Of a DNA stretch of 5,190 nucleotides, positions 1-5,190 are shown piece after piece. Origin of the DNA: Escherichia coli (GTDB lineage: Bacteria; Pseudomonadota; Gammaproteobacteria; Enterobacterales; Enterobacteriaceae); NCBI RefSeq assembly GCF_003334815.1, contig NZ_QOWO01000074.1; one strand, 5' to 3'. The position numbers and the translations under genes are program-made. The stretch's first letter is position 1, and every line of letters begins with the position of its first letter. The notes below the pieces were generated by a model. The model was not told the DNA's origin and did not search any database. It worked only from the letters and a program-made list of their open reading frames with translations.

Positions 1-1196
1 TCAGGGGCGGTTCCTCGCCCCGCAAACCACACTTTCCCTTTTCCCGACTGGTTCAGTTCATCGAGTGTTTTCATTAACTTTTCACTGTTTTTACGGGGCT
101 GGATTTCATCAAATAATCCCGGCTGCGCTATACCCGATGGTGTGAAATCAGCCAGCATGACTCCTGCCTTCATATAGCGGTACCCTTCACGCCAGACATG
201 GTTTAAGGCTCTGCATGCGGCGGCAATAATGTCCCGGCTGTCCTGTGTGGGCAATGGAAGCTTTTCCACAGCGGCATTGCTGTAACAGGGTTCTTTTACT
301 GCAAAGGGGGATGTCCGTACAAATGTCGTCACCTGCCGGCAATACTGACGCTCCCCACGTAGTTTCTCTGCGGCCCGCTCTGCATACTGAACAACAGCCT
401 GGTGCATGGCATCTTTGTCTGTGATTCGTTCACCAAAACTGCGACTACAGACAATCTGCTGTTTTGCCGGTGGTGCTTCTTCCAGGGATATGCAGGACTC
501 GCCGTTGAGTTCGCGTACCGTACGCTCAAGAATGACGCTGAAGTTTTTCCGGATGAATGCCGTGTTAGCCTGCGCCAGCTGCAGTGCTGTGTTAATACCC
601 AGCGCATTCAGCTTTTCCGTCAGTCTGCGTCCTACTCCCCAGACCTCACCAACTGGCTGCAGCCCCAGTAGCTTCAAGGTCCGATTACGGTTTTCTGCCG
701 TCAGCGCGACCACTCCGGAAAACTGTGGCCATTGCTTTGTTGCCCACTGTGCACTTTTAGCCAGCGTTTTTGTAGGCGCAATGCCCACCCCCATGGTGAG
801 TCCTGTCCAGCTCTTTACCTGTTCCCTGAGCTGATGACCAAAAACCTCCGGAGAGATGCAATGATTTATCCCCCGCAAATCAATGAACATTTCATCAATT
901 GAGTAGGGCTCAACTGCGGGAGAAAGCGACTCCAGAACAGCCATGACCCGTTGGCTCATGCTGTGGTACAGCGCATAATTGCTGGAAAATACATGTATTT
1001 TCTTCTCCAGGCGCATCTGTCTCACCTGAAACCAGGGCTGCCCCATTCTGATGCCAAGGGCTTTTGCCTCCGGGCTGCGCGCGATCACACAGCCATCGTT
1101 ATTGCTGAGTACGATGACCGGTTCGTTGCGAAGGTCCGGGCGGAAAACTTTTTCACATGAGGCGTAGAAACTGTTGATATCAGCCAGTGCAAACAT
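1..1196 (-). CDS. impB: Y-family translesion DNA polymerase subunit, UmuC/MucB/ImpB family (partial; C-terminus beyond the window start)
   Basis: Minus-strand frame is open from ATG at 1196..1194 to the window edge (398 codons, no stop; not in the ORF track because it runs off the edge). By-eye translation begins MFALADINSFYASCEKVFRPDLRNEPVIVLSNNDGCVIARSPEAKALG, matching the conserved UmuC N-terminus, and ends within the window as ...VWFAGRGTAP. Start codon overlaps the upstream gene's stop (ATGA). About 20-25 C-terminal residues are expected beyond position 1 by family length. Confidence 0.9.
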   Translation of the reverse strand, partial: MFALADINSFYASCEKVFRPDLRNEPVIVLSNNDGCVIARSPEAKALGIRMGQPWFQVRQMRLEKKIHVFSSNYALYHSMSQRVMAVLESLSPAVEPYSIDEMFIDLRGINHCISPEVFGHQLREQVKSWTGLTMGVGIAPTKTLAKSAQWATKQWPQFSGVVALTAENRNRTLKLLGLQPVGEVWGVGRRLTEKLNALGINTALQLAQANTAFIRKNFSVILERTVRELNGESCISLEEAPPAKQQIVCSRSFGERITDKDAMHQAVVQYAERAAEKLRGERQYCRQVTTFVRTSPFAVKEPCYSNAAVEKLPLPTQDSRDIIAAACRALNHVWREGYRYMKAGVMLADFTPSGIAQPGLFDEIQPRKNSEKLMKTLDELNQSGKGKVWFAGRGTAP

Positions 1197-1633
1197 CAGC
1201 GTAACTCCCGCGTCCTGTGTATCACGTGAGTGACAACACCAAAAATACAGATGTTTTCCGGATACAGTGTGCGGAATTCCGGGCTGTCTGAAACCGGCTC
1301 CAGTGCCGGGCGTGGGCGCAACAGCAGTCGTTTGACGGTGAACTCACCGTCGATCTCAGCGATAACGATGTCCCCGTGTTGTGGTTTCTCGGCCCTGTCC
1401 ACTACCAGCAGATCACCATTCTGCACGCCAGCTTGGTTCATCGATTCACCGCTGGCGCGCAGAAAGAAGGTGGCTGCAGGTCTGCTGATGCAATAGCTGT
1501 TCAGATCCAGTTCCTGCTCAGCATAATCAGTGGCAGGCGAAGGAAAACCGGCCTGGCAACGATCGGCAAACAACGGTCGCACGTAACTGTCATCGCCTGA
1601 AGGGTCAGCCGGACGGTGATAAACGGTACTCAT
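1196..1633 (-). CDS. impA: UmuD/MucA/ImpA-like SOS mutagenesis protein (LexA-like S24 self-cleaving peptidase), 145 aa
   Basis: ORF-track protein MSTVYHRPADPSGDDSYVRPLFADRCQAGFPSPATDYAEQ... contains the UmuD-family hallmarks: an Ala-Gly cleavage region (CQAGFPSPA), the catalytic Ser motif (ASGESM) and Lys motif (FTVKRL). Length is typical. Stop overlaps the downstream polymerase start; start overlaps the upstream impC stop. Confidence 0.9.
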   Translation of the reverse strand: MSTVYHRPADPSGDDSYVRPLFADRCQAGFPSPATDYAEQELDLNSYCISRPAATFFLRASGESMNQAGVQNGDLLVVDRAEKPQHGDIVIAEIDGEFTVKRLLLRPRPALEPVSDSPEFRTLYPENICIFGVVTHVIHRTRELR

Positions 1634-1878
1634 GCTGCAGGCAGCCAGCTGTCGTCCTGCCAGATTTCTTCCAGCAGAGACAGGATACGTTCTTTATCCT
1701 TGTCGTTGCGGGCTCCTGTGACAGATACAGACGGGGCGCTGCCCTGGTCTATACGCAGCCAGATTTCCGGGTAGTGTGGTTTCAGACGTTGTTCGATTTC
1801 ATTCTGTAGCGCCTGAAGTGTGCCTGATTTGAGGTTTTTTGTGCTCTGGCGGTCGAAAAGAATTTCAATGCGGATCAT
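1630..1878 (-). CDS. impC: DinI-like small SOS regulator (ImpC-like), 82 aa from the internal ATG
   Basis: From ATG at 1878..1876 the product MIRIEILFDRQS...VSVTGARNDKDKERILSLLEEIWQDDSWLPAA aligns to the DinI family (RIE start, VSV core, acidic/Trp C-terminal). A Shine-Dalgarno GGGAGA lies about 7 nt upstream. The ORF track extends to an ATG at 1938 (102 aa), but that would place the LexA box inside the coding region, so I prefer the 1878 start. The three-gene order small DinI-like / UmuD-like / UmuC-like is the basis for the imp symbols. Confidence 0.75.
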   Translation of the reverse strand: MIRIEILFDRQSTKNLKSGTLQALQNEIEQRLKPHYPEIWLRIDQGSAPSVSVTGARNDKDKERILSLLEEIWQDDSWLPAA

Positions 1879-1899
1879 GTTCTCATCTCCCTTTTCTAT

Positions 1900-1919
1900 T
1901 GCTGTATGCATATACAGTA
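1900..1919 (-). promoter_or_regulatory. LexA operator (SOS box) for the impCAB-like operon
   Basis: tgCTGTatgcatatACAGta: perfect CTGT-N8-ACAG palindrome (CTGT 1902..1905, ACAG 1914..1917) with AT-rich spacer and TA flanks, 22 bp upstream of the impC start and abutting the candidate -10. Confidence 0.8.
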
Positions 1920-1948
1920 TTCTAATAACTGAATCCACACACAGTCAA
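1919..1948 (-). promoter_or_regulatory. Candidate sigma70 promoter for impCAB (-35 TTGACT, -10 TAGAAT, 18-nt spacer)
   Basis: Minus-strand TTGACT at 1948..1943 and TAGAAT at 1924..1919. The -10 abuts the LexA box, the usual layout for SOS-repressed promoters. Hexamers read by eye; start site unknown. Confidence 0.4.
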
Positions 1949-1992
1949 ATGTCATTATTGTGACTAAAAAACGCTCAATTCTCTGGGAGTGT

Positions 1993-2022
1993 GGCTGTAT
2001 GCCTGCTGTGGACTGCTGTGTC
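1993..2022. repeat. Short tandem direct repeat, 10-bp period (CTGCTGTG core, two clear copies plus one degenerate)
   Basis: ctgctgtg at 2003..2010 and 2013..2020 exactly 10 bp apart, preceded by the related ctgtatgc at 1995..2002. Lies in the divergent intergenic region upstream of the impC -35. Confidence 0.3.
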
Positions 2023-2081
2023 CAGCTTATCCACAGCATTTTGCGCACGGTTCTGTGAATAAAATACCTGGTTACCCAGGC

Positions 2082-2093
2082 CGTGCCGGCACG
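2082..2093. promoter_or_regulatory. Perfect 12-bp palindrome CGTGCCGGCACG (candidate operator or structure)
   Basis: Self-complementary 12-mer in the GC-rich leader upstream of the intron-interrupted gene. No known factor assigned. Confidence 0.25.
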
Positions 2094-2189
2094 TTAACCG
2101 GGCTGCATCCGATGCAAGTGTGTCGCTGTCGCCGGCCTCCTCACCCGGTCACGTTTCGTCGTTCCTCCTCCACGCGCTGCGGCTTCGGG

Positions 2190-2233: not shown

Positions 2234-2271
2234 ACGGCCTGATGGAGGCCGCATGTGAGAGGAGAATTCCC

Positions 2272-2292
2272 ATGCCAAACTGGTGCTCGAAT
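2272..2292 (+). CDS. Host gene exon 1 (7 codons, MPNWCSN) of an intron-interrupted hypothetical protein
   Basis: Strong Shine-Dalgarno GAGAGGAG (2257..2264) 7 nt before ATG at 2272. The 7 codons end exactly at the inferred intron 5' junction and join in frame to the long open frame beginning at 4699. Depends on the inferred intron boundaries. Confidence 0.4.
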
Positions 2293-2900
2293 GTGCGACA
2301 TGAAGTCGTCTGAATAATTGTTCCAGCGGAGTTCGATTCCGTCAGGGAACCTGATGTTCCGTCATCAGTAGCCTACTGACACATGCGTCACTGGTAACGG
2401 TGGGGTGTGAAGCTGTCAGGACAATGAAACCGGATCTTCGGATCGCATGAAACCGTGAGGTTACATGTAATCTGCCAGCATCAGGCGGAGGAGGTCTAGG
2501 CTCGGTAGCATGACTAACATATGTGAACTGCTGAAGCGTCGTTAACCAGAACAAGCCAAAGATGCTGACAGGCTTGAACCAAAAGGTATGTGGTTGGTTA
2601 CTCCTCTGTTTGCTAGGGGTACACGGACAATAAACCACCGGTGTTGTGAGCAGAGTCTAACCTACTGTTGTTATTCAGGTGGAACATGGTAAGCCCGTAT
2701 CGCTGCCTCGTGAGGCAGGTTAACCGCAAGGGATACTGTTGGCGGTGCGGGTAAAAGAAGGTGGAAAAAGCGAATGCCAGTCTGTAATGGACCGGATAAG
2801 GGTTGAGCCCGGCAACATTACCCTACGCGAAAGCGGGCAGACTTCCACTGGGTCTTTCATTACGAGAGAGTTTGAGTAATCTTCCAGAAAGGAAAAGCAG

Positions 2901-4625
2901 ATGACTGAGCAGGCTACAACCTGTAAAGGTGCGTCCTTACTTAACGGTGACTCCTGGCACAGTATCAACTGGCGTCAGTGCTATCGGGAAGTGCGGAGAC
3001 TGCAAGCGCGTATCGTAAAGGCAACACGAGAAGGTAAACATGGCAAGGTCAAATCCTTGCAATGGATACTGACTCACTCGTTTAGTGGCAGAGCAGTTGC
3101 TGTCAGACGAGTTACAGAGAATAGCGGGAAACGTACTCCTGGGGTTGATGGTCAGACATGGTCTTCCCCGGAGGTTAAATTTCTTGCTATTAACCTGCTG
3201 AAACGGCGTGGTTACAAACCACAGCCACTTAAGCGGGTTTATATACCTAAGTCAAATGGGAAGTCTCGTCCCCTTGGGATACCCACTATGAAGGATCGGG
3301 CGATGCAGGCGTTGTATTTGCTGGCTCTTGAGCCCGTTGCTGAAGTCACTGCTGACCAGAGATCCTTCGGCTTTCGGACTGGAAGGTCTACTGCAGATGC
3401 GATAGCACAGTGCTTCTGTGTTCTTGCGCAGAAAACATCCGCTGAATGGGTGCTTGAGGGGGATATACGGGGATGCTTTGACAATATATCTCATCAATGG
3501 CTAATCGATAACACCTCAACAGACAGACAAATCCTGACAAAGTGGCTTAAAGCGGGTTACAGGGAAAATGGGCAGTTATTCCCTGTAAATTCAGGAACTC
3601 CTCAGGGGGGAATAATTTCTCCTGTACTGGCTAACATTGCTCTGGATGGACTGGAGGCGCTTCTTGCGTCGGAGTTTAAAAAGAGAACAGTCAAGGGACG
3701 ATTGGTTAACCCGAAAGTTAACTATGTGAGATATGCTGATGATTTTATTATCACTGGAGAGTCAAAAGAACTTCTTGAGTCTCAGGTATTACCCGTCGTC
3801 AGGCGGTTTATGGCTGAAAGAGGATTAATGCTTTCTCCTGAAAAGACGAAAATCACACATATCGAGGAAGGATTTGATTTTCTTGGACAGAACATTCGCA
3901 AATATGGCGGTAAGATGCTGATCAAACCCTCTAAAGCCAATGTCAGTTCCTTTTTAAAGAAAATACGCGCTGTAATCAAAGGCAACAAAGCTATGGATCA
4001 GCTTACGTTGATCCGCATGCTGAACCCAATGATCAAAGGGTGGGCGGCTTACCATCAACACATTGTGGCCAAGGTCGCATTTAACAAAGTTGACAATGAG
4101 ATCTGGCTGGCTTTATGGCGTTGGGCCGTTCGGCGTCATCCCAATAAGGGAAAGAAGTGGATTCGGAAAAGATATTTCCATCAACAAGGTGCCCGAAACT
4201 GGTCTTTCTCCGTGGCTACCGGAGAACTCCTTGCCAACGGTAAGCCTCAGTATGCAAATCTGAGGAAAGCAATCGATACGCCTATCAACCGGTTTAAACC
4301 GATTAAAATCGCAGCTAATCCGTTCGATCCTCAATGGGAGATGTACTTTGAGGAGCGTTGTGCAGACAAAATGCGGCACAAACTGCAAGGACGGAAAAAG
4401 CTCATTCAAATCTGGTTTGAGCAGCGGGGCCGATGCCCCATATGTGATGAGAGGATTACATCTGATTCCCAGTGGCAGGTTCATCACATCATACGGCGAG
4501 TCGATGGAGGGAGCGACTGCCTCTCCAATTTGATTATGCTGCATCCGATGTGTCACACACTTGTTCATGCGAAAGGTATACATGTAGTGAAACCGGCTCA
4601 TGAGAGTGGGCTTAGAAAGGCTTGA
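2901..4625 (+). CDS. Group II intron-encoded protein: reverse transcriptase / maturase / HNH endonuclease, 574 aa
   Basis: ORF-track protein has RT motifs (RVYIPKSNGKSRPLGIPTMKDR, GCFDNISH, SGTPQGGIISPVLANIAL, VRYADDFII), a maturase X region (MIKGWAAYHQH) and a C-terminal HNH/Cys module (CPICDERI...HHIIRRVDGG...CHTLVH). SD AAGGA 7 nt upstream. Stop overlaps the first bases of domain V. Confidence 0.95.
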   Translation: MTEQATTCKGASLLNGDSWHSINWRQCYREVRRLQARIVKATREGKHGKVKSLQWILTHSFSGRAVAVRRVTENSGKRTPGVDGQTWSSPEVKFLAINLLKRRGYKPQPLKRVYIPKSNGKSRPLGIPTMKDRAMQALYLLALEPVAEVTADQRSFGFRTGRSTADAIAQCFCVLAQKTSAEWVLEGDIRGCFDNISHQWLIDNTSTDRQILTKWLKAGYRENGQLFPVNSGTPQGGIISPVLANIALDGLEALLASEFKKRTVKGRLVNPKVNYVRYADDFIITGESKELLESQVLPVVRRFMAERGLMLSPEKTKITHIEEGFDFLGQNIRKYGGKMLIKPSKANVSSFLKKIRAVIKGNKAMDQLTLIRMLNPMIKGWAAYHQHIVAKVAFNKVDNEIWLALWRWAVRRHPNKGKKWIRKRYFHQQGARNWSFSVATGELLANGKPQYANLRKAIDTPINRFKPIKIAANPFDPQWEMYFEERCADKMRHKLQGRKKLIQIWFEQRGRCPICDERITSDSQWQVHHIIRRVDGGSDCLSNLIMLHPMCHTLVHAKGIHVVKPAHESGLRKA

Positions 4626-4698
4626 GCCGTATGCCGGGAAACTGGCACGTACGGTTCTTAGGGGGCGGTGATGCAGTAATGCATCACTGCTACCCGAT
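4624..4698 (+). ncRNA. Group II intron catalytic domain V and domain VI (branch-point helix) up to the 3' splice site
   Basis: DV: GAGCCGUAUGCCGG-GAAA-CUGGCACGUACGGUUC (4624..4657). DVI: 15-bp helix 4661..4675 / 4680..4695 with GUAA loop and a single unpaired A at 4692, six nt before the ...GAU 3' end. Confidence 0.8.
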
Positions 4699-5190
4699 CG
4701 TATGTATTTTTCTGGTGAACCAGCACAGATCGCTGAGATTAAACGACTGGCCAGCGGTGCAGTCACACCGCTTTATCGCCGCGCCACAAATGAAGGTATT
4801 CAGCTGTTTCTGGCCGGAAGTGCCGGACTTCTGCAGATCACTGAAAATATCCGCTCTGAGCAGTGCCCCGGAGTGACGGCTGCCGGACGTGGTGCTGTAT
4901 CACCGGAAAATATCGCGTTCACCCGCTGGCTGACACACCTGCAGAACGGTGTACTGCTGGATGAGCAAAACTGCCTGATGCTGCATGAACTCTGGCTGCA
5001 GAGCGGTACTGGACAGCGTCGCTGGGAAGAGTTACCGGATGATGTCAGGGAAACTATCACTGTGCATTTCACCGCAAAAAGAGGTGACTGGTGTGACATC
5101 TGGGGTAACGAGGATGTATCGGTGTGGTGGAACCGTCTGTGTGACAACGTACTGCCGGAAAAAACCATGCCGTTTGACCTGCTGACGGTT
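4699..5190 (+). CDS. Host gene exon 2: hypothetical protein of unknown function (partial; continues beyond the window end)
   Basis: Frame beginning at 4699 (CGT ATG TAT ...) is open for 164 codons to the window edge: R-MYFSGEPAQIAEIKRLASGAVTPLYRRATNEGIQLFLAGSAGLL...WWNRLCDNVLPEKTMPFDLLTV. Not in the ORF track because it has no stop in the window. Composition is protein-like. I recognise no family from memory. Confidence 0.55.

What the first reader, a model, noticed from the sequence alone, without database searches (positions are those of the whole stretch)
1876..1938. Start codon ambiguity for the DinI-like gene resolved by the operator position
The longest ORF (ATG at 1938) would translate through the LexA box and add 20 residues (MDSVIRILYMHTAIEKGDEN) with no family counterpart. 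The internal ATG at 1878 has a good SD and gives a family-typical 82 aa. Automated annotation from the ORF track would probably pick the wrong start.
Basis: partly seen in the sequence, partly recalled or inferred. Interest (0 to 1): 0.15.

Follow-up and report, generated by a model that had tools for sequence, protein, structure and literature searches.

The report
impC start codon: short form correct
The small DNA-damage-inducible gene here is the long-known plasmid gene impC; its real start is the internal ATG that gives 82 residues, and the 20-codon upstream extension is just the promoter and LexA operator read as if it were protein, so the finding is correct but ordinary.

Summary
The gene on the minus strand is impC, first gene of the LexA-controlled impCAB (DinI-like / UmuD-like / UmuC-like) operon of IncI-type plasmids.

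Evidence:
- The codon at 1938 lies between the -35 and -10 promoter hexamers.
- Cappable-seq start sites mapped on the near-identical promoter of pCol1B9 correspond to window 1913, 1911 and 1907. These are inside the LexA box and 25-31 nt downstream of 1938.
- Only ATG 1878 has a ribosome-binding site.
- DinI-family profiles, the DinI structure and 53 of 69 distant relatives begin at that Met.
- In related plasmids the "extension" loses its start codons, gains a stop, shifts frame or is cut by an IS, while the 82-aa ORF stays intact.

Corrections:
- The codon at 1938 is GTG, not ATG.
- A third in-frame candidate, ATG 1911, was overlooked.
- The prediction that annotation pipelines would pick the wrong start is mostly wrong. 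PGAP aa in all four records I checked. The exact 82-aa protein is on at least 1000 contigs, against 25 for the 93-aa form and 4 for the 102-aa form.

Already known; low interest.

The parts
1943..1948 (-). -35 hexamer TTGACT of the impC promoter. It contains the in-frame TGA (1947-1945) that closes the long ORF upstream.
   Evidence: Promoter scan: 10 of 12 matches, 18-nt spacer. TGA confirmed. Conserved in relatives.
1929..1944 (-). Second, weak LexA-like site CTGTGTGTGGATTCAG, between the -35 and -10 hexamers. It contains the GTG.
   Evidence: CTG-N10-CAG found 66 nt before the ATG in most relatives. The same 20-mer is listed with heterology index 13.49 for impCAB of pTF2 in PMC12211044 Table 1. 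Binding was not tested.
1936..1938 (-). GTG that opens the 102-aa ORF; not a real start codon.
   Evidence: It lies between the -35 and -10 hexamers and upstream of the mapped start sites. It has no SD pairing (+0.7 kcal/mol). It is GCG in 12 of 80 native-promoter loci without an indel.
1919..1924 (-). -10 hexamer TAGAAT.
   Evidence: The mapped start sites lie 6-12 nt downstream.
1902..1917 (-). Main LexA operator CTGTATATGCATACAG, overlapping the transcription start.
   Evidence: Single match in the window against 0.07 expected. The pTF2 version, which differs by one base, has heterology index 1.60, and ImpC rose 21-fold in a constitutive-SOS strain (PMC12211044). A box at the same relative place is found in relatives that are 50% identical.
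1907..1913 (-). Transcription start sites, by equivalence to pCol1B9 17136, 17134 and 17130. These correspond to window 1913, 1911 and 1907.
   Evidence: Cappable-seq table of PMC10268837, mapped on NC_017718.1. Column identity checked. The two promoters align without indels. This was not measured on the window's own plasmid.
1909..1911 (-). In-frame ATG in the centre of the LexA box; would give a 93-aa form. No SD. It coincides with one mapped start site.
   Evidence: +0.2 kcal/mol. It is ATA in 34 of 80 native-promoter loci without an indel. It is called as the start on 25 contigs.
1887..1890 (-). Shine-Dalgarno GGAG, 8 nt before ATG 1878.
   Evidence: Duplex with the 16S 3' end is -8.4 kcal/mol; only about 6% of background positions in the window reach -7 or lower. 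No polymorphism was seen in the last 11 nt before the ATG.
1876..1878 (-). True start codon of impC.
1630..1878 (-). impC coding sequence: 82 aa plus stop, DinI-like.
   Evidence: Pfam DinI PF06183, E = 2e-17. Named Protein ImpC / IMPC_ECOLX.
1196..1633 (-). impA (UmuD-like S24 peptidase, 145 aa). Its ATG overlaps the impC stop as ATGA, 1633-1630.
   Evidence: NCBIfam NF007621, 143 bits. Sequence. PGAP annotation.
2066..2081 (-). Terminator-like hairpin followed by a T-run, upstream of the impC promoter on the same strand.
   Evidence: Its function was not tested.

Best explanation
The gene is impC, the first gene of the SOS-inducible impCAB operon of I-complex and related plasmids.

Proposed mechanism:
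- A sigma-70 promoter (-35 TTGACT 1948-1943, -10 TAGAAT 1924-1919) starts transcription at about 1913-1907, inside the main LexA operator (1917-1902).
- LexA bound there blocks initiation until DNA damage triggers its cleavage. A weaker site at 1944-1929 may contribute.
- The mRNA has a leader of about 30-35 nt that carries GGAG.
- Ribosomes start at ATG 1878 and make the 82-aa DinI-like ImpC.
- The ATGA overlap at 1633-1630 couples its translation to that of ImpA.
- The GTG at 1938 is promoter spacer DNA and is not on this transcript. The 102-aa ORF is therefore an accident of a stop-free stretch.

Status of each step:
- Read directly or computed here: the sequence elements, family N-termini, RBS pairing and decay of the extension in relatives.
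- From the literature: start sites on a near-identical promoter of another plasmid, and LexA-dependent induction on a third plasmid.
- Inferred: that this plasmid uses the same start sites, that LexA binds these particular boxes, and translational coupling to impA.
For: Promoter and transcript:
- The promoter scan places GTG 1938 between the two hexamers.
- Cappable-seq on S. Typhimurium SL1344 pCol1B9 (reads mapped to NC_017718.1) lists minus-strand start sites at 17136, 17134 and 17130. The impC ATG there is at 17101 and the promoter aligns without indels. These sites therefore correspond to window 1913, 1911 and 1907.
- All three sites are A residues preceded by T. The next minus-strand site upstream is 371 nt away.
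- I confirmed which table column is pCol1B9: the other plasmid column reaches coordinates above 86,908, the length of pCol1B9.

Ribosome-binding site:
- Pairing with the 16S 3' end is -8.4 kcal/mol for ATG 1878, +0.7 for GTG 1938 and +0.2 for ATG 1911.

Family N-termini:
- The NCBIfam DinI profile begins at residue 22 of the long form.
- The DinI structure 1GHH aligns its residues 2-78 with query residues 23-99.
- In a search of 1.84 billion representatives, 53 of 69 relatives at 70% identity or less put their own N-terminus at the query's Met21. Their median length is 80 aa.
- Only near-identical copies of this same locus align to query residues 1-18.

Relatives at 50% identity:
- They have a LexA box, then AAGAGG, then ATG. 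An in-frame TAA inside the box closes any extension.

Variation among 121 sampled loci:
- GTG is GCG in 12 loci and ATG 1911 is ATA in 34.
- There is a TAA at codon -6 in 1 locus, a +1 indel in 9 and a -2 indel in 3. An ISL3-type element abuts the box centre in about 25.
- The 82-aa ORF is intact in most loci of these classes. The exceptions are the three -2 loci and one +1 locus, whose coding sequences are truncated or cut.
- Polymorphic sites number 18 of 60 in the extension against 25 of 246 in the CDS (p = 0.0003).

Annotation and literature:
- PGAP and Swiss-Prot use 82 aa.
- ImpC is induced 21-fold in a constitutive-SOS strain carrying pTF2 (PMC12211044).
Against: - The start sites were measured on another plasmid (pCol1B9, 94.9% identical over the 136 aligned bases of a 141-nt query, window 1985-1850). 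Cells were uninduced and in mid-log growth. The window's own plasmid was not tested.
- That data set is dense, with 2417 sites on about 180 kb of plasmid DNA, so a single site near a prediction would be weak evidence. Here three sites cluster exactly where the -10 hexamer predicts.
- A minus-strand start site at pCol1B9 17507 (equivalent to window 2284) could in principle read through to impC and carry the GTG. Only a terminator-like hairpin (2081-2066), of untested function, lies between.
- The synonymous to non-synonymous ratio does not separate the extension (4:17) from the CDS (9:17); p = 0.33.
- The original papers (Lodwick et al. 1990; Runyen-Janecky et al. 1999) were not available to read.
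Confidence: 0.95

Rival explanations
1. The longest ORF is real: translation starts at GTG 1938 and ImpC is a 102-aa protein with a lineage-specific N-terminal tail.
For: - The frame is open for 20 codons.
- The exact 102-aa protein has been deposited on 4 contigs, for example as 'protein ImpC [Escherichia coli H591]'.
- A distant upstream minus-strand start site exists in pCol1B9, at 17507.
Against: - The GTG lies between the -35 and -10 hexamers and upstream of the mapped start sites.
- It has no SD.
- It is GCG in 12 of 80 relatives. Frame-shifting indels, a stop codon and IS junctions occur in the extension, and the 82-aa ORF is intact in most of the loci that carry them.
- No relative at 70% identity or less aligns to residues 1-18.
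- A stop-free 20-codon run is common by chance.
Confidence: 0.01
2. In this haplotype a minor 93-aa isoform is made from the in-frame ATG 1911. One of the mapped start sites falls exactly on its A, so a share of transcripts would begin with AUG and could be translated as leaderless mRNA, alongside the main 82-aa product.
For: - pCol1B9 start site 17134 is equivalent to window 1911.
- ATG 1911 is in frame with impC.
- About 46 of 80 native-promoter loci without an indel carry ATG here.
- Leaderless translation of mRNAs that begin with AUG is established in E. coli (lambda cI, Tn1721 tetR); this is from my own knowledge.
Against: - The codon is ATA in 34 of 80 relatives, including pCol1B9 and pTF2, so no selection is visible.
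- The start sites were measured on an ATA haplotype, not this one.
- A strong SD-led start lies 33 nt downstream.
- The 11 extra residues have no counterpart in the family.
Confidence: 0.04

Closest known systems
ImpC of the impCAB operon (plasmid TP110 and other I-complex plasmids, Shigella virulence plasmid; Swiss-Prot IMPC_ECOLX; RefSeq WP_000618110.1)
   Same: The 82-aa product is the exact sequence that sources name Protein ImpC / IMPC_ECOLX, and it is the RefSeq protein annotated in plasmids identical over this region. The operon order is the same: impC, impA (UmuD-like), impB (Y-family polymerase). The LexA box upstream is the same.
   Different: Nothing of substance. The main LexA box differs by one central base from the pTF2 version and by two from the pCol1B9 version. 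That central G creates the in-frame ATG 1911.
DinI of E. coli (81 aa, PDB 1GHH; Pfam PF06183)
   Same: Similar size. The N-terminus aligns residue for residue from position 2. It has the conserved C-terminal acidic/Trp motif and is under SOS control through a LexA box.
   Different: It is only a distant relative: 40 bits against the 111-bit cut-off of the NCBIfam DinI equivalog model. It is plasmid-borne and co-transcribed with a UmuDC-type polymerase. Its biochemical activity on RecA was not examined here.

Membership tests
DinI-like family (Pfam PF06183) | Significant match to the family profile | tested here: met
   PF06183, E = 2e-17, residues 39-99 of the long form. 1GHH matches at E = 1.1e-5.
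DinI-like family (Pfam PF06183) | Single-domain protein of about 80 aa whose N-terminal Met directly precedes the first conserved strand (M-[LI]-R-I-E) | tested here: met
   Met only by the 82-aa form. 53 of 69 relatives at 70% identity or less start at the query's Met21, and their median length is 80 aa. The 102-aa form fails this feature.
DinI proper (NCBIfam NF007893 equivalog) | Score above the curated cut-off (111 bits) | tested here: not met
   40-41 bits. It is DinI-like, not a DinI orthologue.
impCAB operon | impC followed by a UmuD-like S24 peptidase gene and a Y-family polymerase gene on the same strand | tested here: met
   impA scores 143 bits against NF007621. There is an ATGA overlap. 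The polymerase gene runs off the window's end but is annotated in plasmids that match the window over this stretch.
SOS regulon (LexA-repressed promoter) | LexA box CTGT-N8-ACAG overlapping the promoter or transcription start | tested here: met
   The box at 1917-1902 overlaps the equivalent start sites 1913-1907.
SOS regulon (LexA-repressed promoter) | LexA-dependent induction | not testable with these tools
   Reported for pTF2 impCAB, with ImpC up 21-fold in a constitutive-SOS strain (PMC12211044). Not measured for this sequence.

The most novel reading that the evidence does not exclude
In haplotypes like this one, where the centre of the LexA operator reads ATG, transcripts that start at that A would be leaderless mRNAs. 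They would encode a 93-aa ImpC isoform with an 11-residue N-terminal tail, made only when LexA leaves the operator. The operator centre would then double as a start codon.
Probability: 0.04. Interest if true: 0.3.

Novelty: already known. Interest (0 to 1): 0.07.

Why it matters
It matters little beyond annotation hygiene. It confirms that the 82-aa ImpC in Swiss-Prot and RefSeq is right. It also shows that the 93-aa and 102-aa versions still present in public databases (about 3% of the contigs counted, as an upper bound) are mis-calls that read a promoter and LexA operator as protein. The case is a clean worked example of settling a start codon from promoter geometry, public start-site maps and population variation.

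Tried and rejected
- The original descriptions (Lodwick et al. 1990, PMC332119; Runyen-Janecky et al. 1999, PMC96475) are not held. I could not check whether they mapped the start experimentally.
- A literature search for impC together with 'transcription start' found nothing.
- The synonymous against non-synonymous test on the extension was not discriminating: 4:17 against 9:17, p = 0.33.
- My first version of that analysis was contaminated by frameshifted assemblies and was discarded (CDS part).
- The closest distinct homologue (P0029, 63% identity) was only on read-end contigs with adapter sequence upstream, so its promoter could not be read.
- Pfam and NCBIfam could not decide the start of the neighbouring DUF1281 gene.
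- I considered that the conserved block at 1983-2100 might hold an upstream promoter for impC. It is the shared region upstream of the divergent DUF1281 gene in IncF and IncI plasmids. The promoter scan found no further minus-strand promoter there.

Full report
**What is in the sequence**

The feature lies on the minus strand.
- An ORF runs from 1938 to 1630 and encodes 102 aa.
- Two in-frame ATGs follow. The other is at 1878-1876.
- The 20 residues before the second ATG are MDSVIRILYMHTAIEKGDEN, as reported.
- A canonical LexA box, CTGTATATGCATACAG, lies at 1917-1902. It is the only CTGT-N8-ACAG in the window, against 0.07 expected by chance.
- GGAG at 1890-1887 lies 8 nt before ATG 1878.
- The stop codon overlaps the next gene's start as ATGA (1633-1630). 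That gene encodes a 145-aa UmuD-like S24 peptidase (143 bits against NF007621).
- An open run of 20 codons upstream of a start is not notable. Half of all positions in this window have one, as do 14% of shuffles of these 60 nt.
- The in-frame stop that closes the long ORF is the TGA inside the -35 hexamer (tTGAct).

**Identity**

- The region is 100% identical to IncI-type plasmids and occurs in more than 2000 plasmids of Escherichia, Salmonella, Shigella and Klebsiella.
- The 82-aa product is the exact sequence that sources call Protein ImpC (Swiss-Prot IMPC_ECOLX). It has been seen on at least 1000 contigs.
- The gene order is impC, impA (UmuD-like), impB (Y-family polymerase). This is the impCAB operon first described on TP110; I could not read the original papers.
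- ImpC matches Pfam DinI (E = 2e-17). It scores far below the NCBIfam cut-off for DinI proper (40 against 111 bits). It is DinI-like, not DinI.

**Promoter and transcript**

- The only sigma-70-like promoter in 1600-2300 has -35 TTGACT at 1948-1943 and -10 TAGAAT at 1924-1919. The GTG at 1938 therefore sits in the spacer between the two hexamers.
- It also sits in the middle of a second, weak LexA-like site (1944-1929). That site is listed for pTF2 impCAB with heterology index 13.49, against 1.60 for the main box (PMC12211044).
- Public cappable-seq data for S. Typhimurium SL1344 were mapped on NC_017718.1, plasmid pCol1B9. This plasmid keeps the impC promoter and a truncated impC.
- The table lists minus-strand start sites at 17136, 17134 and 17130. 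The impC ATG is at 17101 and the promoters align without indels. These sites correspond to window 1913, 1911 and 1907. They are inside the main LexA box, 6-12 nt after the -10 hexamer, and 25-31 nt downstream of the GTG.
- All three are A residues preceded by T. I checked that the column is pCol1B9: the other plasmid column reaches coordinates above 86,908, the length of pCol1B9.
- Caveats: the data come from another plasmid and from uninduced cells, and the data set is dense. The next minus-strand site upstream is at 17507 (window 2284). Only a terminator-like hairpin (2081-2066) separates it from impC, so read-through cannot be excluded.

**Ribosome binding**

Pairing of the 20 nt upstream of each candidate with the 3' end of 16S rRNA gives:
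- -8.4 kcal/mol for ATG 1878
- +0.7 kcal/mol for GTG 1938
- +0.2 kcal/mol for ATG 1911

The background mean is -2.6, and about 6% of positions reach -7 or lower.

**Family N-termini**

- The NCBIfam DinI profile starts at residue 22 of the long form.
- The solved DinI structure (1GHH, 81 aa) aligns its residues 2-78 with query residues 23-99.
- A search of 1.84 billion representative proteins with the 102-aa form gave 106 hits.
- Among the 69 hits at 70% identity or less, 53 place their own first residues at the query's Met21. Their median length is 80 aa.
- Five of them carry N-terminal extensions of their own of about 20 residues or more. None aligns to query residues 1-18.
- The only alignments reaching residues 1-18 are copies of this same locus at 90% identity or more.
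- Relatives begin M-[LI]-R-I-E.
- Two phage-associated relatives at 50% identity have the same layout: LexA box, AAGAGG, ATG. An in-frame TAA inside the box closes any extension after 8 codons.

**Variation within the lineage**

A degenerate pattern for the first ten codons retrieved 120 metagenome loci. Of the 128 loci then held, which also included the window and seven loci fetched earlier, 121 had enough flank:

| Class | Loci |
|---|---|
| GTG and ATG 1911 both present, as in the window | 40 |
| GTG present, ATG 1911 replaced by ATA | 27 |
| GCG in place of GTG, ATG 1911 present | 6 |
| GCG in place of GTG, ATA in place of ATG 1911 | 6 |
| TAA at codon -6 (GTG present, ATA) | 1 |
| +1 insertion between the box and the SD | 9 |
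| -2 deletion | 3 |
| Spacing of 66 nt (the distant relative L007) | 1 |
| No native promoter | 28 |

- Most of the 28 loci without a native promoter have an ISL3-family element abutting the centre of the LexA box.
- The 82-aa ORF is intact in most loci of these variant classes. The three -2 loci and one +1 locus are the exceptions: their coding sequences are truncated or cut.
- The +1 haplotype fuses a different upstream frame to impC. This explains deposited proteins of 136 and 151 aa whose extensions are unrelated to the window's.
- Among 42 clean haplotypes, 18 of 60 extension sites are polymorphic against 25 of 246 coding sites (Fisher p = 0.0003). The last 11 nt before the ATG are invariant.
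- The synonymous to non-synonymous ratio was not discriminating.

**Annotation practice**

- PGAP annotates a 249-nt CDS starting at the equivalent of 1878 in all four records I opened. One of them, pSTY1-1898, matches the 301-bp intron junction of the window exactly.
- By exact-sequence look-up, the 82-aa form is on at least 1000 contigs, the 93-aa form on 25 and the 102-aa form on 4.

**Mechanism and verdict**

- LexA bound at the box that overlaps the start site represses the impC promoter.
- After DNA damage, transcription starts at about 1913-1907.
- Ribosomes use GGAG and ATG 1878 to make the 82-aa ImpC, and probably couple into impA through the ATGA overlap.
- The 102-aa ORF is promoter and operator DNA read as protein.
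- The one reading that remains formally open is a minor leaderless 93-aa isoform. One mapped start site coincides with the A of ATG 1911 in this haplotype. The codon is ATA in 34 of 80 relatives, so I give this about 4%.
- The finding is correct, already known in substance, and of low interest.

Noticed in passing
window 2293-4698 (+): A complete group II intron. It has a GTGCG 5' end, Rfam domains at 2350-2496 and 4622-4698, and an RT/maturase-HNH ORF at 2901-4625 (TIGR04416, 372 bits). It is absent from the otherwise 99.6-100% identical plasmid p85 (L001). About 180 plasmid records, including pO157 of E. coli O157:H7 Sakai, cover at least 80% of a 301-bp query spanning the intron's 5' junction, which suggests the same insertion site.
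   Followed up: partly
window 2260-2292 and 4699-4704 (+): The neighbouring DUF1281 gene has its own start-codon ambiguity, and the intron sits exactly between the two candidates. ATG 2272 has a strong AGGAG (2260-2264) and would give MPNWCSN|RMYFSGEP after splicing. PGAP uses ATG 4702, three bases after the intron. If the upstream ATG is real, the intron interrupts the coding sequence. If not, it separates the RBS-like AGGAG from the start. The Pfam DUF1281 model begins at residue 30 and does not decide. pCol1B9 has plus-strand start sites at 17457 and 17511, against the PGAP start at 17519.
   Followed up: partly
window about 1924 (+), by equivalence to pCol1B9 17147: The cappable-seq table flags a plus-strand start site as a divergent pair with the impC start sites. 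The impC -10 region may therefore act as a bidirectional promoter, with an antisense or divergent transcript running through the -35 region (PMC10268837).
   Followed up: no
L025 3360-5215; also L019, L014, L022, L024, L028 and others: In roughly a quarter of the sampled metagenome impC loci, an ISL3-family element (transposase 329 bits against NF033550) abuts the centre of the main LexA box (...GGGGAAGACCC|ATATACATACAG). The native promoter and left half-site are removed while the SD and the 82-aa impC stay intact. impCAB expression in those plasmids may have escaped LexA control.
   Followed up: partly
L130 (NC_017718.1) 16839-17518: pCol1B9 of S. Typhimurium SL1344 retains the impC promoter with a perfect-consensus LexA box (CTGTATATATATACAG). 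Its impC is truncated (59 aa as read in loci with the same upstream sequence) and it has no impA or impB. The remnant is not listed in the gene table for this record.
   Followed up: partly
window 1983-2100: This block is about 90% identical to an unannotated intergenic stretch between the DUF1281 gene and sopB in many IncF plasmids that lack impC. It belongs to the region upstream of the DUF1281 gene rather than to impC.
   Followed up: partly
P0150, P0128, P0159, P0106: A few distant DinI-like representatives of 97-101 aa carry N-terminal extensions of about 20 residues, unrelated to this one. They may be analogous over-long start calls in other lineages.
   Followed up: no
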